A DNA stretch of 64,000 nt from Flaccisagitta enflata. Lineage: Eukaryota. The notes beneath the pieces were generated by a model. The model worked only from the letters and a program-made list of their open reading frames with translations, made no database searches and was not told where the DNA came from. Positions 1 to 64,000 of this stretch are shown piece after piece. The stretch is from positions 2,666,001 through 2,730,000 of the forward strand of contig OZ231126.1 in assembly GCA_965153355.1 (NCBI GenBank), given 5' to 3'. The translations under genes were made by a program, and so were the position numbers. Each line of letters starts with the position of its first letter. The stretch's first letter is position 1.

Positions 1-3000
1 TCAGAATACAGAATGATAGATGAAGATTGAACTAAGAACTACTCTGGATAACTGAAGTGATCTGAGGAGTATAAGTGACTGAGTCTATGTGAATATTCAT
101 CCATTTATGTTGTGTCAATTAATAGTCCCATTGACTCATAGTGTGTGACTACCTTCAGAATACAGAATGATAGATGAAGATTGAACTAAGAACTACTCTG
201 GATAACTGAAGTGATCTGAGGAGTATAAGTGACTGAGTCTATGTGAATATTCATCCATATATGTTGTGTCAATTAATACTCCCATTGACTCATAGTGTGT
301 GACTACCTTCAGAATACAGAGTGATAGATGAAGATTGAACTAAGAACTACTCTGGATAATTGAAGTAATCTGAGGAGTATAAGTGACTGAGTCTATGGGA
401 ATATTCATCCATATATGTTGTGTCAATTAATACTCCCATTGACTCATAGTGTGTGACTACCTTCAGAATACAGAATGATAGATGGAGATGTAACTAAGAA
501 CTACTCTGGATAACTGAAGTGATCTGAGGAGTATAAGTGACTGAGTCTATTTGAATATTCATCCATTTATTTTGTGTCAATTAATAGTCCCATTGACTCA
601 TAGTGTGTGACTACCTTCAGAATACAGAATGATAGATGAAGATTGAACTAAGAACTACTCTGGATAACTGAAGTGATCTGAGGAGTATAAGTGACTGAGT
701 CTATGTGAATATTCATCCATTTATGTTGTGTCAATTAATAGTCCCATTGACTCATAGTGTGTGACTACCTTCAGAATACAGAATGATAGATGAAGATTGA
801 ACTAAGAACTACTCTGGATAACTGAAGTGATCTGAGGAGTATAAGTGACTGAGTCTATGTGAATATTCATCCATATATGTTGTGTCAATTAATACTCCCA
901 TTGACTCATAGTGTGTGACTACCTTCAGAATACAGAATGATAGATGAAGATTGAATTAAGATCTTCTCTGGATAACTGAAGTGATCTTAGGAGTATTAGT
1001 GACTGAGTCTATGTGAATATTCATCCATATATGTGTGTGTCAATTAATACTCCCATTGACTCAAAGTGTGTGACTACCTTCAGAATACAGAATGATAGAT
1101 GAAGATTGAACTAAGAACCACTCTGGATAACTGAAGTGATCTTAGGAGTGTAAGTGACTGAGTCTATGTGAATATTCATCCATTTATGTGTGTGTCAATT
1201 AATACTCCCATTGACTCAAAGTGTGTGACTACCTTCAGAGTACAGAATGATAAATGAAGATTGAACTAAGAACTACTCTGGATAATTGAAGAAATCTGAG
1301 GAGTATAAGTGACTGAGTTTATGTGAATATTCATTCATATATGTGTGTGTCAATTAATACTCCCATTGACTCAAAGTGTGTGACTACCTTTGGAATACAG
1401 AATGATAGATGAAGATTGAACTAAGAACCACTCTGGATAACAGAAGTGATCTTAGGAGTGTAAGTGACTGAGTCTATGTGAATATTCATCCATATATGTT
1501 GTGTCAATTAATATTCCCATTGACTCAAAGTGGGTGACTACCTTCAGAATACAGAATGATAGATGAAGATGGAACTAAGAACTACTCTGGATAACTGAAG
1601 TGATCTGAGAAGTATAAGTGACTGAGTCTATGTGAATATTCATCCATATACGTTGTGTCAATTAATATTCCCATTGACTCATAGTGTGTGACTACCTTCA
1701 GAATACAGAATGATAGATGAAGATTGAACTAAGAACTACTTTGGATAACTGAAGTGATCTGAGGAGTATAAGTGACTGAGTCCATATGAATATTCATCCA
1801 TATATGTTGTGTCAATTAATACATCTATTGACTCAAAGTGTGTGACTACCTTCAGAATACAGAATGATAGATGAAGATTGAACTAAGAACTACTCTGGAT
1901 AACTGAAGTGATCTGAGGAGTATAAGTGACTGAGTCTATGTGAATATTCATCCATTTATGTTGTGTCAATTAATAGTCCCATTGACTCAAAGTGTGTGAC
2001 TACCTTCAGAATACAGAATGATAGATGAAGATTGAACTAAGAACTACTCTGGATAACTGAAGTGATCTGAGGAGTATAAGTGACTGAGTCTATGTGAATA
2101 TTCATCCATATATGTTGTGTCAATTAATACTCCCATTGACTCATAGTGTGTGACTACCTTCAGAATACAGAATGATAGATGAAGATTGAATTAAGATCTA
2201 CTCTGGATAACTGAAGTGATCTTAGGAGTATTAGTGACTGAGTCTATGTGAATATTCATCCATATATGTGTGTGTCAATTAATACTCCCATTGACTCAAA
2301 GTGTGTGACTACCTTCAGAATACAGGATGATAGATGAAGATTGAACTAAGAACCACTCTGGATAACTGAAGTGATCGTAGGAGTGTAAGTGACTGAGTCT
2401 ATGTGAATATTCATCCATATATGTGTGTGTCAATTAATACTCCCATTGACTCAAAGTGTGTGACTACCTTCAGAATACAGAATGATAAATGAAGATTGAA
2501 CTAAGAACTACTCTGGATAATTGAAGTAATCTGCGGAGTATAAGTGACTGAGTTTATGTGAATATTCATCCATAATTGTGTGTGTCAATTAATACTCCCA
2601 TTGACTCAAAGTGTGTGACTACCTTTGGAATACAGAATGATAGATGAAGATTGAACTAAGAACCTTTCTGGATAACAGAAGTGATCTTAGGAGTGTAAGT
2701 GACTGAGTCTATGTGAATATTCATCCATATATGTTGTGTCAATTAATATTCCCATTGACTCAAAGTGGGTGACTACCTTCAGAATACAGAATGATAGATG
2801 AAGATGGAACTAAGAACTACTCTGGATAACTGAAGTGATCTGAGAAGTATAAGTGACTGAGTCTATGTGAATATTCATCCATATAGGTTGTGTCAATTAA
2901 TATTCCCATTGACTCATAGTGTGTGACTACCTTCAGAATACAGAATGATAGATGAAGATTGAACTAAGAACTACTTTGGATAACTGAAGTGATCTGAGGA

Positions 3001-3640
3001 GTATAAGTGACTGAGTCCATATGAATATTCATCCATATATGTTGTGTCAATTAATACATCCATTGACTCAAAGTGTGTGACTACCTTCAGAATACAGAAT
3101 GATAGATGAAGATTGAACTAAGAACTACTCTGGATAACTGAAGTGATCTGGGGAGTATAAGTGACTGAGTCTATGTGAATATTCATCCATATATGTTGTG
3201 TCAATTAATATTCCCACTGACTCAAAGTGTGTGACTACCTTCAGAATACAGAATGATAGATGAAGATTGAACTAAGAACCACTCTGGATAATTGAAGTAA
3301 TCTGAGGAGTATAAGTGACTGAGTCTATGTGAATATTCATCCATATATGTTGTGTCAAATAATACTCCCATTGACTCATAGTGTGTGACTACCTTCAGAA
3401 TACAGAATGATAGATGAAGATTGAACTAAGAACTTCTCTGGATAACTGAAGTGATCTGAGGAGTATAAGTGAATATTCGTCCATATATGTTGTGTCAATT
3501 AATATTCCCATTGACTCAAAGTGTGTGACTACCTTCAGAATACAGAATGATAGATGAAGATTGAACTAAGAACTACTCTGGATAATTGAAGTAATCTGAG
3601 GAGAATGAATGACTGAGTCTATGTGAATGTTCATCCATCT
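1..3640. repeat. Tandem satellite, 154/155-bp monomer, about 23.5 copies visible (open at window start), with an 8-mer higher-order repeat
   Basis: TCAGAATACAG recurs at 1, 155, 309 and so on. Diagnostic variants recur exactly 1235 bp apart (951/2186, 1391/2626, 1531/2766, 1736/2971). Confidence 0.97.
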
Positions 3641-3689: not shown

Positions 3690-5625
3690 AATTTGGTTTT
3701 GGTTTGTAGGGTTGAGTTAGTTTGTTAGGGTTAGCGTTAGGGTTAGGGTTGCAAGGGTAAGGTAAAGGTTAGTGGGTTTAAGTTGGGTTTGGGTTAGGGT
3801 TAAGGTTGCAGACCTACTAGAGTTAGGGTTAATGGGTTTGGGTTAAGCTTAGGGGTTTGGCTTAGGGTCAGGGTTGGAGACCTACTAACCCCAACCCTAA
3901 CTCAAACCCAGTAACCCTAACCCACTAACTCTTATATTTCCACTCTAATCCTAACCTTAATTATAACCCAGAGAGAGAAAGAGGGTTAGATAAGAGCTAG
4001 AGTTATGGTTAGGGTTAGTGGGTTTTGGTAAGAGTTAGTGAGTTAGGGTTAAGGTTCGGGTTGGAGACTTTCTAACCCTAACCATCTTGCCCTAACCCTA
4101 AGCTCAACCCTAACCTTTTTATTCCAACCCTAACCCTATCATCTATCCTTAAACTCAAACCCTAACCCTAACATGCTAACCCTAACCCACATATCCTAAC
4201 CCTAACCTTAAAAACATAACCCTAACCCTATCATCTATCCCTAAAATCAAACCCTAACCCTAAACTATTTGGACGAAGTTGTGGGGTACGGGTTAGGGTT
4301 AGACCTAATTTTTGAGGGACATAGATCTTACTGAAATGAAGGGTTAGGGTTTGACTTCACTTTGGAGGGATGTCAAACTGAAATGAAGGGTTAGGGTTAG
4401 GGTTTGACTTCATATAGTGATACAAAGGGTTAGGGTTAGACTTCACTTTGGAGGGACATGTTACTGAAATGAAGGGTTAGGGTTAGGGTTTGACCTTACT
4501 TTAATGGGATGTCCAACTGAAATGAAGGGTAAGGGTTAGGGTTTGACTTCACTTTGGCGGGATGTCTTACTAATATGAAATGGAGGTTTGGGTTAGGGTT
4601 TGACTTCATGTAGTGATACAAAGGGTTAGATTTAGACTTCACTTTGGAGGGACATCTTACTGAAATGAAGGGTTAGGGTTAGGCTTTGACTTCACCTACT
4701 GAAATGAAGGGTTAGGGTTAGAGTTTGACTTCACTTTTGAGGTATGTCCTACTGAAATAAATTGAAAGGTAAGGGTTACGGTTTGACTTCACATAGTGAA
4801 AAAAAAGAGTTAGACTTCACTTTTGAGGGACATCTTACTTACTAAAATGAAAGGTTAGGGTCAGGGTCTTACTTCACTTTGGTGGGATGTCTTACTAAAA
4901 TGAAGAGGTTAGGGTTTGGGTTTCACTTCATATAGTTATACGAAGGGTTAGGGTTAGACTTAACTTTGGAGGGACATCTTACTGAAATGAAGGGTTAGGG
5001 TTAGGGTTTGACTTCACTTACTGAAGTGAAGGATTAGGGTGAGACTTTGGAGGGATGTCTTAATAAAATAAAGGGTAAGGGTTAGGGTTAGGGTGCTAAC
5101 CCTAACCCACATATCCTAACCCTTACCTTAAAAACATAACCCTAACCCTATCATCTATCCCAAAACTAAAACCCTAACCCTGAACTATATGGATGAAGTT
5201 GCGGGTCATGGGTTAAGGTTAGACTTAACTTTGGAGAGACATCTTACTGAAATGAAGGGTTAGGGTTAGGGTTTAAACCAAAAGCGTAATAGTGCTATAC
5301 TTTCTTATAACGCTAACCCTAACCCTAACCCGCAACGCTCATGAGCGTGTACATGGCGCTCACTTAGTGAAACATTAACCCTAACCCTAACCCAAACCCT
5401 AACCCTAACCTTGTTATCCAGCCCTAACCCTAACCCTAACCCAAGAAACATAACCCTAACCCTAACCCGAGAAACATAACCCTAACCCTATCAGCTATCC
5501 TTAATCTCAAACCCTAACCCTAACACTAACCCTAACCCGTACAACTGAAGTGCATTTGCGGGAATGGGTTTGTTTTCACTTTGGAGATACCTCTTACTGA
5601 AAGGAAGGGTTGGGGTTAGGGGTGA
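3690..5625. repeat. Degenerate telomere-like (TTAGGG/CCCTAA) region with alternating polarity and a ~50-bp TTAGGG-containing subrepeat
   Basis: Short runs of GGTTAG and CCCTAA. The unit GACTTCACTTTGGAGGGACATCTTACTGAAATGAAGGGTTAGGGTTAGGGTTT repeats over ~4300-5270. A ~130-bp block is duplicated at ~4174 and ~5094. Confidence 0.9.

Positions 5626-6495: not shown

Positions 6496-6585
<90 letters not shown>
5776..6585. repeat. Cluster of (CT)n/(GA)n microsatellites among decayed satellite-like motifs
   Basis: (CT)n at ~5776-5848, ~5908-5973 and ~6498-6585. AATATTC and GACTCA/TGAGTC motifs are shared with the satellite. Confidence 0.85.
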
Positions 6586-6591
<6 letters not shown>

Positions 6592-6634
6592 TCTTCACCT
6601 TTTCCTTTGTCTGTCAGTCAGTGGGTCGTGACGG

Positions 6635-6790
6635 TTTTTAGTCGCGGACACGCGACTCTACACCTTGCCGTGTCGGTCGGTCCGTCCGTCCGTCGGTCCG
6701 TCCGTCACATTTCTAAATTCTGAGCGGTTTTTGCGGTACTGCTCCAGCCCAACCGTCCGCGACTGGATTGCCGTGTATCCGGCCTTGTTT
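6635..6790 (+). mobile_element. Short HINE/DINE-1-like (non-autonomous Helentron-type) element, representative of many dispersed copies
   Basis: T-run, 5' hairpin TAGTCGCGGACACGCGACT, (GTCC/GTCG)n tract, 3' end GCCGTGTATCCGGCCTTGTT. Related copies on either strand at ~8370, 14055, 14150, 17535, 17870, 18040, 18700, 19755, 31395, 31800, 33585, 38435, 47040, 57740, 61070, 61725. Confidence 0.75.
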
Positions 6791-6997
6791 ACCATGATGT
6801 CGAGTGACCGACACCATGGGGTGTGACTGTCGATTCCGACAGTCACGACATAAGTTCTCCCAACGCTAGGACCCACGCATCTACCCATGGCCGGACTGAC
6901 GGACATGCCCTTGTATATAAAGTTGCAAAGTGACCACTATTAACAGAAACTTTCAACGAAAACTAGAGGGGAGCTTCTGTGAACTTTTTAAAATTAC

Positions 6998-7150
6998 CTG
7001 ATTATGAATAAATCTGACAAATTGAACGACAATTTGAAGAGCGTCTTTGAAGCTTTCGTCGGTGACACTTTTGCTCGTGTCAATGACAAACACGACGTCG
7101 ACTCTGACATGACCGCACTCAGCCGATCGTTCGCAACTTCGACCATCATC
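6998..7150 (-). CDS. VWA/EGF (matrilin-like) protein, exon D: end of EGF and start of a VWA domain with MIDAS motif
   Basis: cag|DDGRSCERSAECGHVRVDVVFVIDTSKSVTDESFKDALQIVVQFVRFIHNQ|gtaatt; 153 nt, phase 0-0; DxSxS present. Confidence 0.9.
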
Positions 7151-7420
7151 CTGCAGAGTGAGTGTTTCTACTAAAGATGAAAAACGCGTTTGTTACCGTT
7201 GAAAGCATTCACAGCGTGAAGACATATTAAAAAATTTTAACTGTCCCGCGAGGGAGTGAGCAAAGTGAGTGAGCGAGCCCGTGAACAGAGCAAGCGAGAG
7301 AAGCAAACATAGCAAAGCGAAGCGCTGAAGAGTAAATGAGCGGAGTGAGCAGTGCGAGCGAACGAACGTAGCGAGCGACCGAGTGGCCCGTTCAAAACGC
7401 GATTGTCTCTGACTAGAAAC
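7151..7420 (-). mobile_element. MITE-like insertion that makes up an entire 270-nt GT-AG intron (candidate Introner)
   Basis: The intron starts GTTTCTAG and has the inverted counterpart TAGAAAC near its 3' end. It ends in TCACTCTGCAG, a perfect 11-bp copy of the end of the upstream exon. The interior is (CGCT/CACT)-rich. Confidence 0.7.
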
Positions 7421-7570
7421 CTGCAGAGTGAATCCAGTCAGGCACTCGCAACCCGCAAACACGTTTCCATTGTACTCGACGCAATTTTGTTGACATCCTC
7501 CGTTGTGATCGTCGCAAGTGGAAGAAGCAGTCGAGCATATCAAGCCTTGGCCAATCTCATCGTTGAAGAA
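7421..7570 (-). CDS. VWA/EGF protein, exon C: VWA C-terminal helix and EGF-like domain
   Basis: tag|FFNDEIGQGLICSTASSTCDDHNGGCQQNCVEYNGNVFAGCECLTGFTLQ|gtttct; 150 nt, phase 0-0; C-x3-NGGC-x3-C...CxC-x2-GF spacing. Confidence 0.9.
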
Positions 7571-7822
7571 CTAGAAGGCAGGTGAAAACAAAGCTGAATT
7601 ACTCTGGGGACAAAAAAAATAACAAGGCCGGATACACGAATACACGGGCATCAGAAATGCGGACCCACTTTTCAACTCTATCACCACGCAGGGGCAGAAA
7701 GGACGGACGAGTTTGTCCCTTTCAAACGAATCTATAAAAGATTAGTCCCTGTTTAAAGATCACAAAACTATGTCACAACGGACGGAGCAAAGCCTCTTAT
7801 AACAGTTGCGTGTCCGCAACTA

Positions 7823-9373
<1,551 letters not shown>

Positions 9374-9591
9374 CGTTGGTTGTCTTCAAAGTAGGTCTTT
9401 GCCGCATACAGAGCTTCCGCTGTGTTCGTCTCAAGTTTCGTTATAGATCGCTTTTTGATGTTTTTGATCTTTTTCTCGAGCGACAGAATATCTCCAGTGA
9501 TAGATTGTTCAAAAAAGAGGTCAATATGAGCATCTCCTTCAAACTGAATGATGGCCAGTCGAGCATCTTGAGATGATAGCGGAAATTCACT
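9374..9591 (-). CDS. VWA/EGF protein, exon A: VWA middle part
   Basis: cag|SEFPLSSQDARLAIIQFEG...ETNTAEALYAAKTYFEDNQ(R)|gtctgt; 218 nt, phase 0-2, joins exon B in frame; TNTxxAL motif carrying the MIDAS Thr. Confidence 0.85.
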
Positions 9592-10483: not shown

Positions 10484-10493
10484 TCCTCCTGTC

Positions 10494-11540
10494 TAGTCGA
10501 GTCGGCCCGTTTTGTCGAGTCGGCCTGTTTTGTCGAGTCGGCCCGTTTTGTCAAGTTGGCCTGTTTTGTCAAGTTGGCCAGTTTTGTCGAGTTGGCCTGT
10601 TTTATTGAGTGGGCCCATTTTGTCAAGTCGGCCTGTTTTGTCAAGTTGGCCAGTTTTGTCATGTTGACCTGTTTTGTCAAGTCGGCCTGTTTTGTCAAGT
10701 CGGCCTATTTTGTCAAGTCGGCCTATTTTGTCAAGTCGGCCTATTTTTTCAAGTTGGCCTATTTTGTCAAGTTGGCCTATTTCATCAAGTGGGCCTGTTT
10801 TGTCAAGTCGGCTTGGTTTGTCAAGTTGGCCTGGTTTGTCAAGTCAGCCTGTTTTGTCAAGTTGGCCCGTTTTGTCAAGCCGGCCCATTTTGTCAAGCCG
10901 GCCCATTTTGTCAAGCCGGCCCATTTTGTCAAGCCGTCCCGTTTTGTCAAGCAGGCCCGTTTTATCAAGTTGGCCCGTTTTGTCCAGTCAGCTCGTTTTG
11001 TCAAGTCGGCCCATTTTGTCGAGTCGGCACATTTTGTCGAGTCGGCCTGTTTTGTCGAGTCGGCCTGTTTTGTCAAGTTGGCCAGTTTTGTCGAGTTGTT
11101 ATTGAGTTATTGAGTGGGCCCATTTTGTCATGTCGCCCTGTTTTGTCAAGTTGGTCAAGTTGGTCCATTTTCCAAGTTTGCCCATTTGGCCTAAGTAAAC
11201 AACTCGTCACTGCGGTTGTGCACTTGTTTTTTTCACGAATACATAACTGCAACCGTACCCCTAACCCTACCCTAACCCCACCCCTAAACCTAACATAACT
11301 TCTGACCCTAACCCTACCTCTAACCCCACCCCTATCCCTAACCCAACCCCTTACCCTAACGTAAACCCCAGCCAAAACCCACTTGCGAGAAAGTATTGAT
11401 CAGCCGAAAAACAAAAGACCAATTTCCCTTTCTCCTCCTAGACCGCTCATTTTCCCTAGTCGGCCCAGTTTCCCTAGTCGGCCCATTTTCCCTAGTCGGC
11501 CCATTTTCCCTAGTCGGCCCATTTTCCCTAGTCGGCCCTT
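10494..11540. repeat. 18-bp minisatellite (TTTTGTCAAGTCGGCCYR) with an internal CCCTAA-like tract (~11255-11375); resumes at ~17290-17390
   Basis: Direct periodicity. Variant unit TTTTCCCTAGTCGGCCCA at ~11450-11538. Confidence 0.9.
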
Positions 11541-11583: not shown

Positions 11584-11614
<31 letters not shown>

Positions 11615-12991
11615 TGTATGTCCGTTAACCTTACCTCAAAAATCCCCCTTATCCATCTCCAATCACTCACCAACCACCCCTGATCATTTTTAGATGCGTC
11701 CTCGCATCTCCATAAGAGGGTCTGTCCGTCCGTATGTATGTATGTATGTCCGTTAACCCTACCTCAAAACTCCCCCTTATCCATCTCCAATCACTCACCA
11801 ACCAACCCTGATCATTTTTAGATGCGTCCTCGCATCTCTATAAGAGGGTCTGTCCGTCCGTATGTATGTATGTATGTCCGTTAACCCTACCTCAAAAATC
11901 CCCCTTATCCATCTCCAATCACTCACCAACCACCCCTGATCATTTTTAGATGCGTCCTCGCATCTCTATAAGAGGGTCTGTCCGTCCGAATGTATGTATG
12001 TATGTATGTCCGTTAACCCTACCTCAAAAATCCCCCTTATCCATCTCCAATCACTCACCAACCACCCCTGATCATTTTTAGATGCGTCCTCGCATCTCTA
12101 TAAGAGGGTCTGTCCGTCCGTATGTATGTATGTCCGTATGTATGTCCGTTAACCCTACCTCAAAAATCCCGCTTATCCATCTCCAATCACTCACCAACCA
12201 CCCCTGATCATTTTTAGATGCGTCCTCGCATCTCTATAAGAGGGTCTGTCCGTCCGTATGTATGTATTAGCCTGTACTGAAATGACTAAATCAAAAAAAT
12301 CGACATTCTACGAGCGGTTCATGTTGTGGAGCTGTCTTGGGCTTCGATGGTCATCAATTTCAGCTTCAAAAGTTTACATCTTGCTTTCCGCGCCTTACCT
12401 TGAACTTCCCATGGGTCAATAGGAAACTGAAAATCTCAAATTGCTCATATCAAAATTTTGACTGCAGATTTGAAATCTGCATGAAAAACTGTCTGTTGAA
12501 AGTGCTTTTCTTTTTTCGGGATCATTATCAAAATCCACGCTAAAGATTTTTAAAGAAGGTAAGTTCAATGATTTTACAAAGAAATTAAAAGGAAAAGTAT
12601 GTTTCGCGATATTTGACAACACTTTTGACCACCTTCCAATTGGAATATCAAAAAAAGGAAAACACTTTCAATTAGGCATGTTCCAAGGGACAATATGTCC
12701 TTCGGAGGGAGGGGAGGGGATTTATTTTGTCCCTCCCTCAAGGGGAGCCGAAAGATCCGAATGTTTTGCTTTATACTACTTCATTTCAGGATGGAAATAG
12801 CGGGCATACGCCAGAGAGAGCCAAAACAGTTTTAGATCACTTTCAGAAAGTTTAGTTGTTTATGAAAGGAAACCTAGGGAACAAAATAAGCAACTAGCTC
12901 TTACAACTGATATGTTGTTAAAATAATCTATTTCTTTTTAAACAAAACTGAACCCCGACTAATAATCTTGGACATTCAGGTGGAAAGGCTT

Positions 12992-13872: not shown

Positions 13873-14466
13873 TAAATGAAGGTGAATGAAAGTAGGAAGG
13901 TTGCAAGAATAAAGAAGGACGCCAGGATTGGCTGTTTTGCGCGGTTTTGACATTTGCGTGATAGACTGACAGATCAACCAACTGAGGGACAGACATGACT
14001 TCTTATGCAAGGACGCACAAAGAAATAAAGTCAAATTATGCTTAGCCTAACTCATTTTTAGTCGCGGACATGCGATTCTACACCTGAAGGTGTTGGTCCA
14101 TCCATCGGTCCGTCCATCCATTGGTCACATATAGCTAAATTGCGAGCGTTTTTAGTCGCGTGCACGCGACTCTACAACCCACTCTGTCTTTCTGTCGGTC
14201 GGTCGGTCGGTCGGTGACACTTTGCTTTTTTGCTGCTCCTGCCCACCCGCACGCGACTTTGGCTTGTGTATACGGCCTTGTTTGCATTACTTCTACTGCC
14301 CTACCGTCCGCAACTGGATTACCTTGTATCCGGCCTTGTTGATATAAGCAGTTTTTTTTAACATGGCATCAAAACGCGTTAAAAATAAGAATGTTGTAGT
14401 TATTTCATTAATAGCTATCTTTTGAAGGCGAAAGTGTAGAAAGTATGGTAAAACTACCTTATTTAC

Positions 14467-18422: not shown

Positions 18423-19071
18423 TGCCTCAATTGCTTTTTAAGTACGACATAGAGTGTATGGTTAGTTGGCTAAGACGTTCAGAAATTTGACCACATTTGA
18501 CCTCCCAGATAGCCGCCCTAGTACCCGGCCTTGTTAGATCCTTCCGTTGGTCTGTAACGATTAAGTCGAGAAGTGGAAAAACCGGCATTTTGGATACTTT
18601 TTGAGTTTGTTTGTGTGTGGGGTGGGAGTTGGGGTGTGAATCTGGGTCGGATGCCCTAGTCCACCTGTCCGCAACAATATTGTGACCCCGCGCCACTTGT
18701 TTTTTAGTCGCGTGCTACGCGACTCTACACCCCGCTTTGTCGGTCCGTCGGTCCGTCCGTCCGTCCGTTGGTCCGTTGGTCCGTCCATCACACTTTACTT
18801 TTTTTTTGGTTTTTGCGGTCTTTGGCCTCACTGCTCCTGCCCTAGTGATCAAGTGATCTCAAATACGGCCCCTGCCCACCCGCACGCGACTAGGGTAGCC
18901 GTGTATCCGGCCTTGTTTTTTATGTCGTTACTAATACCGTATTACGTCCAAACAGCCTATGTGCTTCCATTGGTTAGTTCGTCGATCAAATGGTCAGGAT
19001 AACGTTGGAAATGCGCAAAACATCCGATTCTGAAATTAGCGCCACACACACATAACACACAGTACACACAA

Positions 19072-19669: not shown

Positions 19670-20096
19670 GTAAGGATGGACTGTTGGATACATAGACGGA
19701 CCGACAGATCGACCCTTTGATCAAAGACAGAAAAAGAAAGTAAGATCGGATGAAACAAGGCCGGGTGCACGGTAGGACAGTCGCGGACAGTTGGGCAGGA
19801 GCAGTAATGCAAAAACCGCTGGCAATTCTAAAATGTGACCTAATGACATACCGACATACCAACTGACACGGCGAGGTGTAGAGTCGCGTGTCCGCGACTA
19901 AAAAGAGAAAGGCAGAATGCTACCATGGCAAGGCAAGGGAAGACATGCCAACTAGTGCAGTGATCTAGTTAGTAGAATATGATACTTATGTTTAAATGTG
20001 TCTTATGTATTTCTCGCATTTGTTAAGAGACTAAGCACATTGCAGATGACTAATGCCCGTACAGTCTGTAGTAGCGCGCGAGTAGCGCTGCTACTG

Positions 20097-22545: not shown

Positions 22546-22721
22546 GTTATAAGCTCTTCCGTATTTCCAAATCTAGACGACATCTACAATACCTCATCCA
22601 AAAACTTGACAAATTTGATGACAATGTCCAAGGCATCTTTGAAGTTGGCCTCCGTGACGCTGTGGCTCGCATCAAGCACAAATACGACGTCAACAGGAAC
22701 ATGAGCGCAAATCTCACCTGA
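22546..22721 (+). pseudogene. Terminal exon of the pseudogene (open, phase 1)
   Basis: tcag|(G)YKLFRISKSRRHLQYLIQKLDKFDDNVQGIFEVGLRDAVARIKHKYDVNRNMSANLT*; AATAAA at 22942-22947. Confidence 0.5.
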
Positions 22722-31710: not shown

Positions 31711-33462
31711 GCCCAGTCAAACAGGCTCACAAGCAGGCCGACAGATTACCTCCTAATGATGAGTTACTCTTAGCTCGCAAACAGAAACGTAACCATGGCA
31801 GAAACAAGGCCAGATACACGGCAATCAAGTCGCGGACGGTTGGGCAGAAGCAGTAATGCAAAAAGCGCTCTGAATTCAAAAATGTTATGGACGGACAGAT
31901 GGATTGACCTACCGACCGACACGGCATGGTTCGACTAAAAAAGACTTAATGTCCATGAGCAGAAAACAAGCTTAGAATCCTTTTTAAAATGGCACAAAGA
32001 GTAAATATGTAACTTAATGTGTTCCAATTTCATACTACAAAAAAGAAACATATTTGTTTTTGATCAACTGTAGGACAACCAGCAAGATCCCATTCAAAAA
32101 ATCTTTTACAGAGCTCTCAAATGGTCGTGGATTTACTTTGATTCTTTCGTAGTGTACTAAAAATCAGAAGGGTCAGTTTTTGGGCAGCGGCTCCAAAGGG
32201 GTCGATGATCTATGCTTTCAAACATATAGGGGATATTCTCCTCCTCCTTTACTTCTTCATACGCCCCCCCTCCTGAATCAGATCCTAGCCCTGAGGCCCA
32301 AATCCCAGCCCTGAGGCCCAAATCCCAGCCTTGAGGCCCAAATCCCAGCCTTGAGGCCCAAATCTCCGCCTTGAGGCTAACATCTCCGCCTTTGAGGCCC
32401 AAATCCCATCCTCGGGATTTGGGCGTCAAGGCTGGGATTTGGGCCTTGTGGCTAGGATCTGAGTCAGAGGGGGGGGTGGATGGAGGAGGAGAAGGAGAAA
32501 ATCCCCCACATGTGTGAAAGCATAGGTCATCGACCCTTTTTGGGGCAATCCAGTCGCGGACGGTTGGATAGGAGCAGTAATGCAAAAACCGATTGGAATT
32601 CAAAAATGTGACGGACAGACAGACCGCCCTATCAACCTACCGACCAACTGACCGACACGGCAAGGTGTAGAGTCGCGTATCCGCAACTAAAAATTAGAAA
32701 AGCCAAGGCGGGTCATGTAATGGGAGCCATGTTAGAAGGCAACTGTGACAATTTTAATCATTTTCGGTTGTAGCATTTTGATTTGAAATGATCCATGCAG
32801 GCTCGGGATTTCCTCGTTGTTATTTCTTTGTCGCTATCTTTGTCTCCCCTTTATTATGTATGTCGCTATCTTTGTCTCTTTTTAGCGAAAATATCAAAAA
32901 TCAAAAATAATTCGGCGGCGCCCCTTTCTACTTAATAAAGGCCCAACTTGGGGTTTCTGTCCCTAGAAAAATATATCAACCCGAGGAAAAGTGCCCCGAG
33001 GGTTTATGATCGGATTGGTTTCCCCTCTACTTTTTGACTTATGGTACGTTTCACAGTCTCGCAGGCGGGGTACGAGTAAAATTGGTCATTTTTAGAACTA
33101 CATAAATTCAACAAAACTATACATCATTATCAAGCATATGTATTATTGTTCATGAACTCACTTTTGGATTTTGTTAGCGGTGTCTGATTCTTATGTAAAT
33201 TAGGTTATTGTAACAAGATGTCAAAATTTACCTTTATTTCAAAATTTAACCATTTAGAGAAGAAAGATCATCCAATGAAGGCGTATAATTGTGCAAAAAA
33301 GCAGGGCAAATGTTTTTACACTATATTGATCATTGGGTAGGAGTAGTAATAAAAAAAATTGAATGCAAACTCTCAGATAGTCCAAAATATCTATGTTTTT
33401 TGGACAGACTAAGCATCAGTCTGCGACAATATTGTAACCCTGCGTTTTTCTTTTTCTTTCTC

Positions 33463-59880: not shown

Positions 59881-60061
59881 CCCCCCAACCGAGAGCAACC
59901 ATACCTGTTCTCTTCTGCTTCTTAATCTTTTTTTTTTCTTTTTCATTATAGATCAGTTGGTTTTTAACATTCTCCCCCCCCCCCTTCTTCCTCAGCTGTA
60001 AATCTCCGCCGTGTCAGCAATTTGCACTGAGTTACCTTTTTTATTTTTCTCCTATTTCCAG

Positions 60062-61011
60062 TTACACCCGCAACAGTTTGAGCCCCTTGGCCACGGACGT
60101 AGAATTGGAGTACGATCCGACCGTCAGCACTCTGCATCATCGACCCTCCAAGACGTCTTCAAACGAATTCTTCGCTCCGAGTCTCTTCGAAAATCAATCG
60201 CCGCATCAGCATCATAACCAGCAACAACAGCATCACAACCAGCTTCAACAGCAGCATCACAACCAGCTTCAACAGCAGCATACTCAACAACAGCATGGAC
60301 GCAACTCGTTGTCGAAACCGCATCTCAACGACCGTAAAAGGCCTCTCTCGCGATCACGATCTCCTTCCACGCCGCAGCAGCAGCATCAACAACAGCATCA
60401 GCAGCAGCAGTTGAAGCGGCAGAGGCTTTCTCAGGATGAGTTCAAGAATTGCCACGTCAAGCGAGAAGGCGGGAAAGTGGGGCAAGAGGAGGAGGAAGAG
60501 GAGGAAGTGAAAGTGGAGACGTTGACGGACGCCGACATTCGGATGGATCGGAGTGTCGGCGGCGATGACGCTGACAATCATGATGACAATCGTGATGACA
60601 ATGATGACGACATCGTCGTGGAAGATTTTCGATCTGCAAGGATTCATGGGGATCACGATGTCGGTGATGGTTGTGGTGGAAGCGGCAATGGTAGGGAGAA
60701 TGGTGGTGGCGGTGGTGGTGGTGGCGATAGAAGTGGCGATTTTAGTGGCAACAATTCTAGCCTCGCGCTTTCGTTGTTTGAGGGCGGTGGTGGCGGTGAC
60801 GTCAGCTTGTCTTCGGCGGCGACTTCTATCGGTCACGTGAGCGGCATTTTCGATAACGACCCTAAAAGATATCCCAATAAACTATCGGCTTTGGAAGGGT
60901 TTTCGTTGCCCGAGTTGGCAGGAGAACATCCGGTCGCGTCCAAGATCTTCAAATCATGTCTGTACGATTTCGCCAAAACTGTCGCATCGGATTTTGTGGC
61001 GTCTTTGCATG
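60062..61011 (+). CDS. Second coding exon: Q/H-rich, basic NLS-like, acidic and Gly-rich tracts, then the start of a folded C-terminal region; the gene continues past the window
   Basis: tttccag|T-TAC joins exon 1 in frame (CDA-YTRNSLSPLATDVELEYDP); 950 nt open; RKRP and LKRQR motifs; ends SLH-G|gtaagt. Confidence 0.85.
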
Positions 61012-61208
61012 GTAAGTATTTTTTATTGTTGCGTTGTTTACCGCGTATTGTTTTTCCACTGCCCTGCCACTTTAGTCGTATGCTACGCGACTCTACACCC
61101 CACTCTCCGCCCGTTTGTCCGTCAGTTGGTCGGTCCGCAAAATTTTACTTTTTTTTATGATTTTTATCTTTTGGTCTAGTGTATCCGGCCTTGTTTTAGT
61201 ACTTACCA

Positions 61209-61542: not shown

Positions 61543-61809
61543 ACTTACCAACACAGAAATTATCAGTCTATGTCTGTCAACTGATTTTATTTGTTTTACA
61601 TTTTATTTCTTTTTTTAGTCGCGGACAAGCGTGTTGGTCGGTATGTTAGTACATAGGAAATATTGTTAAATTGCGGCTCCAGCCCAACCGTCCGCGACTG
61701 TCTTGCCGTGTGTCCGGCCTTGTTTTTAGTCGCGTGCACGCGACTCTACACCTTGCCGTGTCGGTCGGTCGGTAGGTCGGTCGGTCCGTCACGTTTTTGA
61801 AATTATGAC

Positions 61810-62314: not shown

Positions 62315-64000
62315 GTAAGTATGTAAGTATGTATGTATGTAAGTATGTAATTATCTAAGTACGTAAGTATGTAAGTATGTAAGTATGTAGGTTAGTATGT
62401 AAGTATGTAGGTAAGTATGTATGTAAGTATGTAAGTAGGTAAGTGTGTAAGTATGTGAGTATGTAGGTAAGTATGTAAGTATGTAAGTAAGTATGTAGGT
62501 ATGTAAGTATGTAAGTAAGTATGTAAGTATGTATGTAAGTATGTAAATATGTAGGTAAGTATGTAAGTATGTATGTATGTATGAAAGTATGTAAGTAAGT
62601 ATGTATGTATGTATGTATGTTTGTACGTATGTATGGAAATAAGTATGTATGTAAGTATGTATGTAAGTATGTAAGTATGTAAGTAAGTATGTAAGTATGT
62701 ATGTAAGTATGTATGTAGGTATATAAACATGTAAGTATGTAAGTATGTAAGTATGTAAGTAAGTATGTCAGTATGTATATAAGTATGTAAGTACGTAAGT
62801 ATGTCAGTATGTAGGTAAGTATGTAAGTATGTAGGTAAGTATGTAAGTAAGTATGTATGTAAGTATGTAAGTAGGTAAGTATGTAAGTATGTGAGTATGT
62901 ACCTAACTATGTAAGTATGTAATTATGTAAGTATGTAGGTATGTAAGTATGTAAGTAAGTATGTAAGTATGTGAGTGTGTAGGTAAGTATGTAGGTATGT
63001 AAGTATGTAAGTAAGTATGTAAGTAAGCATGTAAGTATGTGAGTATGTAGGTAAGTAGGTAAGTATGTAACTAATGTAAGTATGTAAGTATGTAAGTATG
63101 TAAGTATGCAAGTAAGTATGACAGTATGTAAGTACATAAGTATGTAAGTATGTATGTATGTAAGTAGGTAAGTAGGTAAGTATGTAAGTATGTATGTAAG
63201 TATGTAAGTAAGTATGTAGGTATGTAAGTATGTATGTATGTAAGTAAGAATGTAAGTATGTATGTATGTAAGTAAGAATGTAAGTATGTAAGTATGTATG
63301 TAAGTAAGAATGTAAGTATGTAAGTATGTATGTAAGTAAGAATGTAAGTATGTAAGTATGTAGGTAAGTATGTAAGTGTGCAGGTAAGTATGTAAGTGAG
63401 TAAGTATGTATGTAAGTATGTAAGTAGGTAAGTATGTAAGTATGTGAGTATGTATGTAAGTATGTAAGTAAGTATGTAGGTACAGTTAAACCCCGCAATA
63501 ACGAATGTCAAGGGACTAACAAATTTTATCCACTATAGCCGGATTTCCCTTATAGCCAACATAGAAATCAAAAGAAATTGATATGAAGGGACCATGTTCT
63601 TAGATTTGTTATAGGCGGATTTCCATTACTCTTGGATCCGTTATAGCGGGGTTTAACTGTATGTAAGTATGTAAGTAAGTATGAAAGTATGAAAGTATGA
63701 AAGTATGTAAGTATGTAAGTATGTAAGTATGTAAGTATGTGAGTATGTGAGTATGTGAGTATGTGAGTATGTGAGTATGTGAGTATGTAAGTATGTGAGT
63801 ATGTAAGTATGTGAGTATGTAGGTAAGTAAGTATGTAAGTACGTAAGTATGTATGTAAGTATGTAAGTAGGTAAGTATGTGAGTATGTAGGTATGTAAGT
63901 AAGTAAGTAAGTAAGTATGTAGGTAGGTAAGTAAGTATGTAAGTATGTAGGTATGTATGTATGAAAGTATGTAAGTAAGTATGTATGTATGTATGTATGT
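62315..64000 (+). repeat. Mosaic tetranucleotide array (GTAA/GTAT/GTAG/GTGA), open at window end
   Basis: Direct reading. Preceded by a perfect 14-bp hairpin (62284-62314). Confidence 0.97.
63483..63659. mobile_element. Tc1/mariner-like MITE (TA TSD) inside the array
   Basis: TA|CAGTTAAACCCCGC ... GCGGGGTTTAACTG|TA. Confidence 0.85.

What the first reader, a model, noticed from the sequence alone, without database searches (positions are those of the whole stretch)
7151..7433. Transposon that is a whole intron: candidate animal Introner splitting an EGF domain
Seen (gene sense): exon ...GGAT-TCACTCTGCAG|GTTTCTAGTCAGAGACAATCGCGTTT ... AAACGCGTTTTTCATCTTTAGTAGAAACAC-TCACTCTGCAG|GATGAT. The donor GT is the start of an imperfect ~27-bp inverted repeat. 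The acceptor AG lies in a perfect 11-bp duplication of the exon end (13 bp with one mismatch). Splicing restores GFTLQ-DDGRSC exactly. Known: Introner DNA transposons create introns using one splice site from the TIR and one co-opted from the TSD, and EGF modules are usually bounded by phase-1 introns rather than cut at phase 0 between Cys5 and Cys6. Inference: recent TE-mediated intron gain, possibly from an undescribed intron-generating family. Only one copy is in the window.
Basis: partly seen in the sequence, partly recalled or inferred. Interest (0 to 1): 0.78.

Follow-up and report, generated by a model that had tools for sequence, protein, structure and literature searches.

The report
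Intron built from a transposon copy
A 270-base interruption in a matrix-protein gene of a marine organism is one copy of a very abundant short transposon plus a duplicated 11-12 bases of the gene, a layout that would let it be spliced out as a new intron, though splicing could not be checked.

Summary
On the minus strand, a GT..AG segment (7420..7151, 270 nt, phase 0) splits an EGF module between Cys5 and Cys6. It is flanked by an exact 11-nt direct repeat (12 nt counting the next G). Its ends form a 26-28-nt imperfect inverted repeat.

There is no second copy in the window. In DNA contigs of the same organism and of a marine metagenome, however, 7162-7420 is massively multi-copy, and other copies stop matching exactly at 7420. 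I also recovered 159 ORF clusters that read through other copies. So the interruption equals one repeat copy plus a target duplication. That essentially excludes an old intron overwritten by a MITE.

- The copy lacks the family's terminal ~6 nt at both ends (0 of 46 and 0 of 57 other copies end like it). Integration was therefore not canonical.
- The copy is not young (at least 19 of 259 sites differ from the family majority).
- Nothing shows that the family makes introns elsewhere.

Splicing is untested: no RNA reads fell on the exons. I read it as a new member of a known kind, TE-derived intron gain. Interest is moderate.

The parts
7151..7420 (-). Candidate intron: 270 nt, GT (7420-7419) to AG (7152-7151), phase 0. 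It equals the repeat copy plus one copy of the duplicated target.
   Evidence: sequence. (in-frame stop at 7195-7193 if read through). Splicing not observed.
7162..7420 (-). Body of a dispersed TIR repeat (MITE-like, 259 nt). It lacks the family's terminal ~6 nt at both ends.
   Evidence: summed word depth is 1.7e5-4.9e6 (X1) and 1.4e3-4.0e4 (X3) here, against 105-136 and 4.5-7.3 on the flanking exons. Loose ends begin exactly behind 7420 in 670 (X1), 39 (X3) and 12 (X15) contigs; 159 ORF clusters read through other copies.
7421..7431 (-). Exonic copy of the 11-nt direct repeat TCACTCTGCAG (12 nt with 7420). It encodes the end of ...FTLQ and ends in the CAG|G proto-splice site.
   Evidence: (D4).
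7151..7161 (-). Intronic copy of the 11-nt direct repeat (12 nt with 7150). It supplies the pyrimidine-rich tract and the acceptor AG.
   Evidence: (D4).
7395..7420 (-). Inverted-repeat arm at the intron 5' end. Its first two bases are the donor GT.
   Evidence: 21 matches over 26-28 nt; 0 of 2000 shuffles. (the arms pair in the predicted fold).
7164..7191 (-). Inverted-repeat arm near the intron 3' end.
7421..7570 (-). Upstream exon: tail of VWA1 plus the EGF module up to Cys5 (..CECLTGFTLQ). The acceptor is ttctag| at 7571.
   Evidence: (FXa_inhibition 1-30/36, E 3.8e-5).
6998..7150 (-). Downstream exon: DDGRSC (Cys6), a linker and the start of VWA2 with DTSKS. The donor is cag|gtaatt at 6998/6997.
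   Evidence: (VWA 1-18). (68% identity to the VWA1 N-terminal exon).
8588..8846 (-). Exon with the C-terminal part of VWA1.
   Evidence: (VWA 95-167/174).
9374..9591 (-). Exon with the middle of VWA1. Its donor GT is the first unit of a (GT)n microsatellite.
   Evidence: (VWA 30-98)..
22593..22717 (-). Exon with the N-terminal part of VWA1 (phase-1 acceptor).
   Evidence: (VWA 1-32, E 2.1e-5).

Best explanation
The 270 nt arose by insertion into a continuous EGF-coding exon. A copy of an abundant short inverted-repeat transposon family entered at a CAG|G site, and 11-12 bp of the target were duplicated. The donor GT is the first two bases kept from the element's inverted repeat. The pyrimidine tract and acceptor AG come from the duplicated exon end. 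Removing 'element + one repeat' therefore restores the original message exactly, so the insertion behaves as a new phase-0 intron.

Integration was not the family's normal cut-and-paste. The copy lacks the terminal ~6 nt that other copies carry at both ends, and the duplication is far longer than expected. I think the most likely route is capture of a repeat copy with trimmed ends during repair of a staggered break. An aberrant transposase event is the second choice.

Shown: the anatomy, the multi-copy nature and limits of the repeat, the missing termini, and contigs from two samples that run from the flanking unique DNA 25-30 nt into the element.

Inferred: that the exon was once continuous, that the segment is spliced, and the mode of integration.
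For: Anatomy:
- GT..AG, 270 nt, phase 0, exact 11-12-nt direct repeat, imperfect TIR.

Multi-copy repeat:
- 7162-7420 has a summed word depth thousands of times that of the flanking exons, both in X1 (the labelled organism) and in X3 (a marine metagenome).
- A SINE-like repeat at 6633-6790, with 12 or more copies in the window, behaves the same way and serves as an in-stretch positive control.
- Other copies stop matching exactly at 7420: 670 contigs in X1, 39 in X3, 12 in X15.

Other copies recovered as ORFs:
- 5 ORFs and 159 clusters with E<=1e-3, at 46-80% residue identity.
- Our copy has the modal internal length, 83 residues from V to (L/V)ET, as in 9 of 19 two-ended copies.

Nothing but repeat plus duplication lies between the splice sites.

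The gene looks alive:
- Five exons have open frames, GT-AG sites and consistent phases.
- VWA1 is covered over profile positions 1-32, 30-98 and 95-167.
- Cys6 and the DxSxS motif follow the junction.

Presence in independent samples: contigs in X1 (6936-7186 and 7395-7638) and X3 (7391-7619) run from unique DNA into the element.

Precedents:
- Introner families that carry the 5' site and take the 3' site from the duplication (PMC9860276, passages read).
- Daphnia new introns with a 4-12-bp repeat of the exon end at the far end of the intron (PMC4202315, passages read).
Against: - No RNA evidence. 0 of 11 laid X22 reads and none of the 8 X15 contig pieces listed lie on the exons (X15 depth is 0 across the exon bins apart from edge bins). 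All of them lie on repeats. Only about 6% of X22 was read.
- No transcript-derived protein was found.
- The donor GTTTCT is weak.
- The contigs reach only 25-30 nt into the element, just under the tool's 31-letter rule for bridging.
- The rest of VWA2 was not found downstream in the window, so gene integrity is shown only for five exons.
- The X1 contig 6936-7186 differs at 6 exon sites, 5 of which change a residue (two in one codon). This hints at weak constraint or a paralogue.
- The integration mode is conjecture. No other copy with trimmed ends plus a long duplication was seen: 0 of 29. That test sees only about one frame in three.
Confidence: 0.62

Rival explanations
1. The family, or a subfamily of it with ends at GTTTCT...GAAACAC, is a true introner. 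In this reading it is a transposon that routinely lands in exons, makes an 11-12-bp duplication and is spliced out, so that many genes of this organism carry such introns.
For: The architecture is that of described introners that carry the 5' site and co-opt the 3' site (PMC9860276). The family is very abundant. Its ORF copies occur in sources labelled ena and merc. 5 of 46 copies lack a G at both of the two positions before VSS (EF, KV, CR, WL, and GW with G only at the first), so other ends exist. Introners are enriched in aquatic organisms (PMC9860276, PMC12130899).
Against: 0 of 46 copies have CAG before the GT and 0 of 57 have the duplicated exon-like end. 0 of 29 two-ended copies show a long in-frame flank duplication. 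0 of 10 long flanks hit a Pfam domain. Canonical termini carry no AG at the 3' end. There is no genome or annotation to count genic copies.
Confidence: 0.15
2. The insertion is simply a disruptive transposon insertion in an exon. It is not spliced, the protein is truncated at the in-frame TAA, and the gene, or this copy or allele of it, is a pseudogene.
For: There are no RNA reads on the exons and no transcript-derived protein. The donor GTTTCT is weak. The rest of VWA2 is not found in the 7 kb downstream, which is full of satellites. 5 of 6 exon differences in the X1 contig change a residue.
Against: All five exons seen are open, with canonical splice sites and matching phases. The copy differs from the family majority at 19 or more of 259 sites, yet the 101 flanking codons have no stop or frameshift. 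The EGF exon shows a single listed difference in X3, which is synonymous by my reading, and the one X1 contig listed there has 1 other letter over 7395-7638. Other donors of this gene are also weak (GTCTGT, GTATTG).
Confidence: 0.18
3. An old intron already stood at this position, and a MITE later landed in it and now fills it.
For: MITEs often sit in introns. The copy is not young.
Against: Other copies stop matching exactly at the first intron base (7420), and the listed pieces start at 7162-7165. The remaining 11 nt are an exact copy of the exon end. No older intron sequence is left. An insertion into an intron would not duplicate exon sequence.
Confidence: 0.03
4. The direct repeat and the inverted repeat are chance resemblances in an ordinary intron.
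For: Exon ends and intron ends both favour CAG, and pyrimidine tracts are of low complexity.
Against: Nine extra matching bases have a probability of about 4e-6. The TIR score is reached by 0 of 2000 shuffles. The repeat family's limits coincide with the interval between the repeats.
Confidence: 0.01

Closest known systems
Introners: intron-generating transposons of Micromonas, Aureococcus, Chrysochromulina, dinoflagellates, and also copepods, a tunicate and a sea urchin (Gozashti et al. 2022, PMC9860276, passages read; Gozashti et al. 2025, PMC12130899, Results read)
   Same: A short non-autonomous TIR element lies exactly between two splice sites. One splice site is carried by the element and the other is taken from the duplicated target. 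Removal restores the message without a length change. The host is aquatic.
   Different: Only one locus is known here. The copy lacks its family's own termini. The 11-12-bp duplication is longer than the 3-9 bp quoted for earlier families. No evidence shows that other copies are introns. Splicing was not observed.
New introns of Daphnia pulex made during repair of staggered double-strand breaks (Li et al. 2014, PMC4202315, passages read)
   Same: [quoted passage not shown] There it is 4-12 bp in 33 cases; here it is 11-12 bp. The inserted DNA needs no transposase footprint.
   Different: There the source of the inserted DNA is mostly unknown. Here it is a nearly complete copy of an abundant transposon family, trimmed symmetrically. 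No presence/absence polymorphism is shown here.
Tourist-like MITEs of the PIF/Harbinger superfamily (PMC2836001, passages read; PMC2213677, abstract in a search listing)
   Same: The family's canonical copies have G/C-rich termini followed by GTTTCT. They are about 270 bp long and highly abundant. TAA/TTA-like bases stand next to the terminus in the loose-end consensus. The resemblance of the termini and of the flank (C)ACTTA to the PIF target is recalled, not tested.
   Different: A 3-bp duplication on both sides was not demonstrated (3 of 19 against 1.4 expected). No transposase partner was seen. The copy in the gene has an 11-12-bp duplication, not a 3-bp one.

Membership tests
Introner (intron-generating transposon) | Belongs to a multi-copy mobile family | tested here: met
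   (depth, and loose ends at 7420 in 670, 39 and 12 contigs). (5 ORFs and 159 ORF clusters).
Introner (intron-generating transposon) | Element limits coincide with intron limits, with splice sites carried by the element or co-opted from the target | tested here: met
   The GT is the first base pair of the retained TIR. The AG lies in the duplicated 11-mer.
Introner (intron-generating transposon) | Correctly spliced out of the transcript | tested here: inconclusive
   0 reads on the exons in about 6% of X22, and no exon depth from X15 contigs (none of the 8 listed pieces); no transcript-derived protein.
Introner (intron-generating transposon) | Many copies of the same family form introns in other genes | not testable with these tools
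   No genome is held. Partial look: 0 of 46 and 0 of 57 copies share our junctions, and 0 of 10 long flanks have a Pfam domain.
Introner (intron-generating transposon) | Intron absent at the orthologous position in relatives | not testable with these tools
   No eukaryotic genomes are on hand. Metagenome and viral scans found nothing.
Staggered-break (Daphnia-type) new intron | Direct repeat of the adjacent exon's terminal bases at the opposite intron end, 4-12 bp | tested here: met
   11 nt exact, 12 nt with the next base. The range comes from PMC4202315.
Staggered-break (Daphnia-type) new intron | Insert lacks the footprint of a canonical transposition | tested here: met
   the terminal ~6 nt are missing at both ends (0 of 46, 0 of 57). 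The duplication is unlike the family's flanks.
Staggered-break (Daphnia-type) new intron | Young, segregating presence/absence alleles | tested here: inconclusive
   the insertion junctions are seen in X1 and X3. No empty-site joint appears among the 15 joints listed (167 more were not shown).
PIF/Harbinger (Tourist-like) MITE | Terminal inverted repeats | tested here: met
   The canonical ends were inferred.
PIF/Harbinger (Tourist-like) MITE | 3-bp TTA/TAA target duplication on both sides | tested here: inconclusive
   TAA/TTA lies next to one terminus in the consensus; flank residues agree in 3 of 19 copies against 1.4 expected (765 of 5000 shuffles reach this). ORFs cannot contain TAA, which biases the test.
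PIF/Harbinger (Tourist-like) MITE | Autonomous partner with a DDE transposase and a second ORF | not tested
   No genome was available to search.

The most novel reading that the evidence does not exclude
This marine organism carries an intron-making derivative of an abundant Tourist-like MITE family. The derivative integrates without its terminal hexamers and duplicates 11-12 bp centred on the family's usual target. That would be a new integration mode, turning an ordinary animal MITE into an introner and seeding many phase-preserving introns at CAG|G sites across the genome.
Probability: 0.12. Interest if true: 0.8.

Novelty: new member of a known kind. Interest (0 to 1): 0.48.

Why it matters
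How new spliceosomal introns arise in animals is still argued. The two main models are transposon insertion (introners) and error-prone repair of double-strand breaks. This locus is a clean single case with hallmarks of both. The inserted DNA is identifiable as a member of a highly abundant transposon family. Yet its trimmed ends and long exon-end duplication look like break repair rather than transposition. If RNA data confirm splicing, and a genome-wide count finds more such copies, the organism would offer a testable link between the two models in a metazoan-type gene. If the locus stands alone, it is a tidy but ordinary example of TE-derived intron gain.

Tried and rejected
- Whole-genome search: no genome is held for this window.
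- Second copy in the window: none. blastn with word size 7 gave only chance hits.
- DNA of other copies:
  - An exact 24-mer scan of metagenome contigs gave 0 hits.
  - A profile-based scan of metagenome contigs matched 167 pattern stretches, none confirmed.
  - A scan of viral contigs matched 5 stretches, none confirmed.
  - The family could therefore be studied only through the read laying summaries and ORF translations.
- Spliced product in protein collections: a VWA exon with 'longer' lengths gave 0 hits. The exon after the intron with 'longer' lengths gave 0 hits.
- RNA: X22 (about 6% of the run read) gave 11 reads, all on repeats. X15 contigs gave depth only on the repeats, with none on the exons. 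I take this as 'not expressed enough to tell', not as evidence against splicing.
- Rfam on 6500-7900: 0 matches at E<=1.
- RNA fold of the intron: the ends pair, but the energy is ordinary (z = -0.42).
- Window-wide count of GT..AG pairs with repeated upstream bases: swamped by tandem repeats and not used as a statistic.
- Atlas look-up of a VWA exon: VWA clusters only, with no taxa.
- Earlier findings of this scan: nothing for this genome or sequence. 38 notes on 'introner' concern other genomes and were not used.
- Rejected idea: that CTGCAG is a palindromic extension of the TIR. Its spacing to GTTTCT/GAAAC differs at the two ends (0 nt against 7 nt).
- Rejected idea: reverse splicing of a lariat. 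It would not duplicate exon bases.
- Supplements of the introner papers (species and family tables) are closed. They may list this organism or family.

Full report
**1. What is there**

The gene lies on the minus strand. One exon (7570-7421) ends ...TGCGAGTGCCTGACTGGATTCACTCTGCAG. The next 270 nt run from GTTTCTAGTCAG... (7420) to ...GTAGAAACACTCACTCTGCAG (7151). The following exon starts GATGATGGTCGAAGTTGC and runs to 6998, where the donor is cag|gtaatt.

- The last 11 nt of the upstream exon recur exactly as the last 11 nt of the interruption (family D4). With the following G the repeat is 12 nt.
- The two ends of the interruption form an imperfect inverted repeat with 21 matches over 26-28 nt. 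0 of 2000 shuffles and 1 of 2000 random 40-mers of the window score as well.
- Read through, the frame meets a TAA at 7195-7193.
- Removed, the frame continues ...CECLTGFTLQ|DDGRSC..., which supplies the sixth cysteine of the EGF module.
- The upstream exon matches Pfam FXa_inhibition positions 1-30 of 36 (E 3.8e-5, below the gathering score). The downstream exon opens a VWA domain.

**2. The gene around it**

I could lay out five exons with GT-AG borders and matching phases: 22717-22593, 9591-9374, 8846-8588, 7570-7421 and 7150-6998. The first three cover the VWA profile at 1-32, 30-98 and 95-167 of 174.

The protein reads VWA - EGF - VWA. This resembles matrilin-type matrix proteins (a resemblance recalled from memory, not tested).

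- The remainder of the second VWA domain was not found in the 7 kb downstream. That stretch is mostly microsatellite, telomere-like repeat and a 154-bp satellite.
- Other donors of the gene are also far from consensus (GTATTG, GTCTGT). The weak GTTTCT donor is therefore not out of character.

**3. The interruption is a copy of an abundant repeat**

The window holds no second copy and no genome is held for it.

I laid contigs of a DNA run labelled with the same organism (X1), contigs of a marine metagenome (X3), metatranscriptome contigs (X15) and raw poly-A RNA reads (X22) on 6620-7815 at 80% likeness.

- On the flanking exons the summed word depth is 105-136 in X1 and 4.5-7.3 in X3.
- Over 7140-7419 it is 1.7e5 to 4.9e6 in X1 and 1.4e3 to 4.0e4 in X3.
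- The tool warns that this sum is not a copy number. The contrast is still thousands-fold.
- A SINE-like repeat at 6633-6790, which has 12 or more copies inside the window, behaves the same way and serves as a positive control.
- The limit is the decisive point. Other copies cease to match exactly behind 7420, the first base of the interruption, in 670 contigs of X1, 39 of X3 and 12 of X15. The listed pieces begin at 7162-7165, just inside the 11-nt repeat.

So the interruption equals one repeat copy (7162-7420) plus one copy of the duplicated exon end. No base is left for an older intron.

**4. Other copies, seen as translations**

The in-frame translation of the element (75 residues) retrieved 5 ORFs from the word-indexed collection. 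It retrieved 159 cluster representatives with E<=1e-3 (59 with E<=1e-10) from the exhaustive search. The best 150 are listed, at 46-80% identity.

- Our copy has the modal internal length: 83 residues from V to (L/V)ET, as in 9 of 19 copies that show both ends.
- The flanks of the 10 longest ORFs hit no Pfam family. These copies do not visibly sit in coding exons.

**5. The ends are not the family's ends**

- 5' end. 46 ORFs reach the 5' end. The two residues before VSSQR are GG in 21, EG in 7, and GC, GR, GD, RG or MG in 12. None has Q, that is, CAG as in our gene.
- DNA agreement. This fits the DNA consensus behind 7420...GAAAC followed by GCCCCC, AGGCCC or AGACCC, and then TAAGT or TTAAT.
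- 3' end. 57 ORFs reach the other end. 48 continue LET-RP and then diverge. None continues LTLQ as ours does.
- Canonical copies thus carry about 6 more G/C-rich bases at each end, and our copy lacks them on both sides.
- None of 29 two-ended ORF copies shows an in-frame flank duplication of 9 nt or more. The same script finds it in our copy. The test can see only duplications that stay in frame.
- The G/C-rich termini followed by GTTTCT, the ~270-bp size and TAA/TTA next to the terminus recall Tourist-like MITEs of the PIF/Harbinger superfamily. Those make a 3-bp duplication and have an extended target preference (PMC2836001, passages read). The likeness of the termini and of the flank (C)ACTTA to the maize PIF target is from memory.
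- A two-sided 3-bp duplication could not be shown: 3 of 19 against 1.4 expected, with 765 of 5000 shuffles as good.
- One curiosity. Our 11-mer reads TCAC-TCT-GCAG. It is symmetric around a CAC-TCT-G that resembles that flank consensus in 5 of 7 places. I cannot say whether this means anything.

**6. Age and spread**

- In the listed rows, the majority letter of the family in X1 differs from ours at 19 sites of 7162-7420. Many are A where the family has G, the pattern of CpG decay. A further 29 rows were not shown. The copy is therefore not young.
- Contigs run from unique DNA into the element in X1 (6936-7186, 95% identical; 7395-7638, 1 difference) and in X3 (7391-7619, 1 difference).
- They enter the element by 25-30 nt, just below the tool's 31-letter criterion. 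That is what one expects of contigs that break at repeats.
- No empty-site joint is among the 15 joints listed (167 more were not shown).

**7. Is it spliced?**

This is untested.

- About 6% of X22 was read. It gave 11 reads, all partial and all on the two repeats, none on the exons. X15 contigs likewise gave depth only on the repeats.
- Searches for a protein containing the neighbouring exons found nothing.

The case for splicing is indirect:

- The junctions are GT..AG at a CAG|G site with a C/T-rich tract.
- Removal restores a canonical EGF end.
- All five exons are intact although the insertion has had time to diverge by 7% or more from its family.
- The EGF exon shows one listed difference in X3, synonymous by my reading (7535). 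The one X1 contig listed there has 1 other letter over 7395-7638.

Against it:

- The X1 contig over 7150-6998 shows 6 differences, 5 of which change a residue (two in one codon). It may be a paralogue or a weakly constrained allele.

**8. Mechanism**

What is shown: a repeat copy minus its termini, an 11-12-bp duplication of the target, and splice signals drawn from the TIR and from the duplication.

What I infer: the exon was continuous, and a staggered break at the CAG|G site was filled in and joined to a repeat copy whose ends had been trimmed.

- This is the layout described for Daphnia new introns. There a 4-12-bp repeat of the exon end stands at the far end of the intron (PMC4202315, passages read).
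- An aberrant transposase-mediated event is the second possibility.
- A specialised subfamily with these ends, a true introner, is the third.
- Known introners include families that carry the 5' site and co-opt the 3' site. They are reported from copepods, a tunicate and a sea urchin (PMC9860276, passages; PMC12130899, Results). An animal case is therefore not new in kind.

**9. Verdict**

- The reading 'a transposon that is a whole intron' is right in anatomy.
- 'Introner family', 'recent' and 'spliced' are not established.
- The integration was non-canonical.
- It is a new member of a known kind, of moderate interest.
- Two straightforward tests would settle it: RNA across the junction, and a genome-wide census of the family.

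Noticed in passing
window 6633-6790 (and 12 or more further copies, e.g. 14055-14340, 18701-18918, 19753-19904, 31802-31930, 61676-61790): A SINE-like dispersed repeat of about 160 nt is the commonest repeat in the window. In one search its summed depth exceeds even that of the intron's element, and poly-A RNA reads of X22 fall on it.
   Followed up: partly
window 193-3565: A tandem satellite with a 154-nt unit fills the first 3.5 kb, downstream of the gene. The expected remaining VWA2 exons are not found before it.
   Followed up: no
window 5369-5538 and 11251-11360: Interstitial degenerate (TAACCC)n arrays, which are telomere-type TTAGGG repeats on the other strand.
   Followed up: no
window 9203-9373: The donor GT of the intron after exon 9591-9374 is the first unit of an 84-copy (GT)n microsatellite in gene sense. 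The splice site abuts a perfect dinucleotide array.
   Followed up: partly
window 10488-11151 and 11604-12000: An 18-nt minisatellite (36.8 copies) and a 128-nt tandem repeat (3 or more copies, 97% matches) lie inside the 13-kb intron of the VWA gene.
   Followed up: no
window 6936-7186 (contig of run X1): A contig 95% identical to the window covers the exon after the intron and the first 25 nt of the element. It has 12 substitutions and 2 gaps. 5 of its 6 exon differences change a residue, and it turns the last exon codon CAG into GCG. It may be a divergent haplotype or a paralogous gene copy that shares the insertion.
   Followed up: no
window 62390-64000: A G-rich tandem array of GTAAGTATGTAG-like units, with GC skew 0.74 in the last 2 kb.
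   Followed up: no
window 59952-61157 (+): The longest open frame of the window (402 residues, glutamine- and histidine-rich) has no Pfam match. It may be an exon of another gene or a chance frame.
   Followed up: partly
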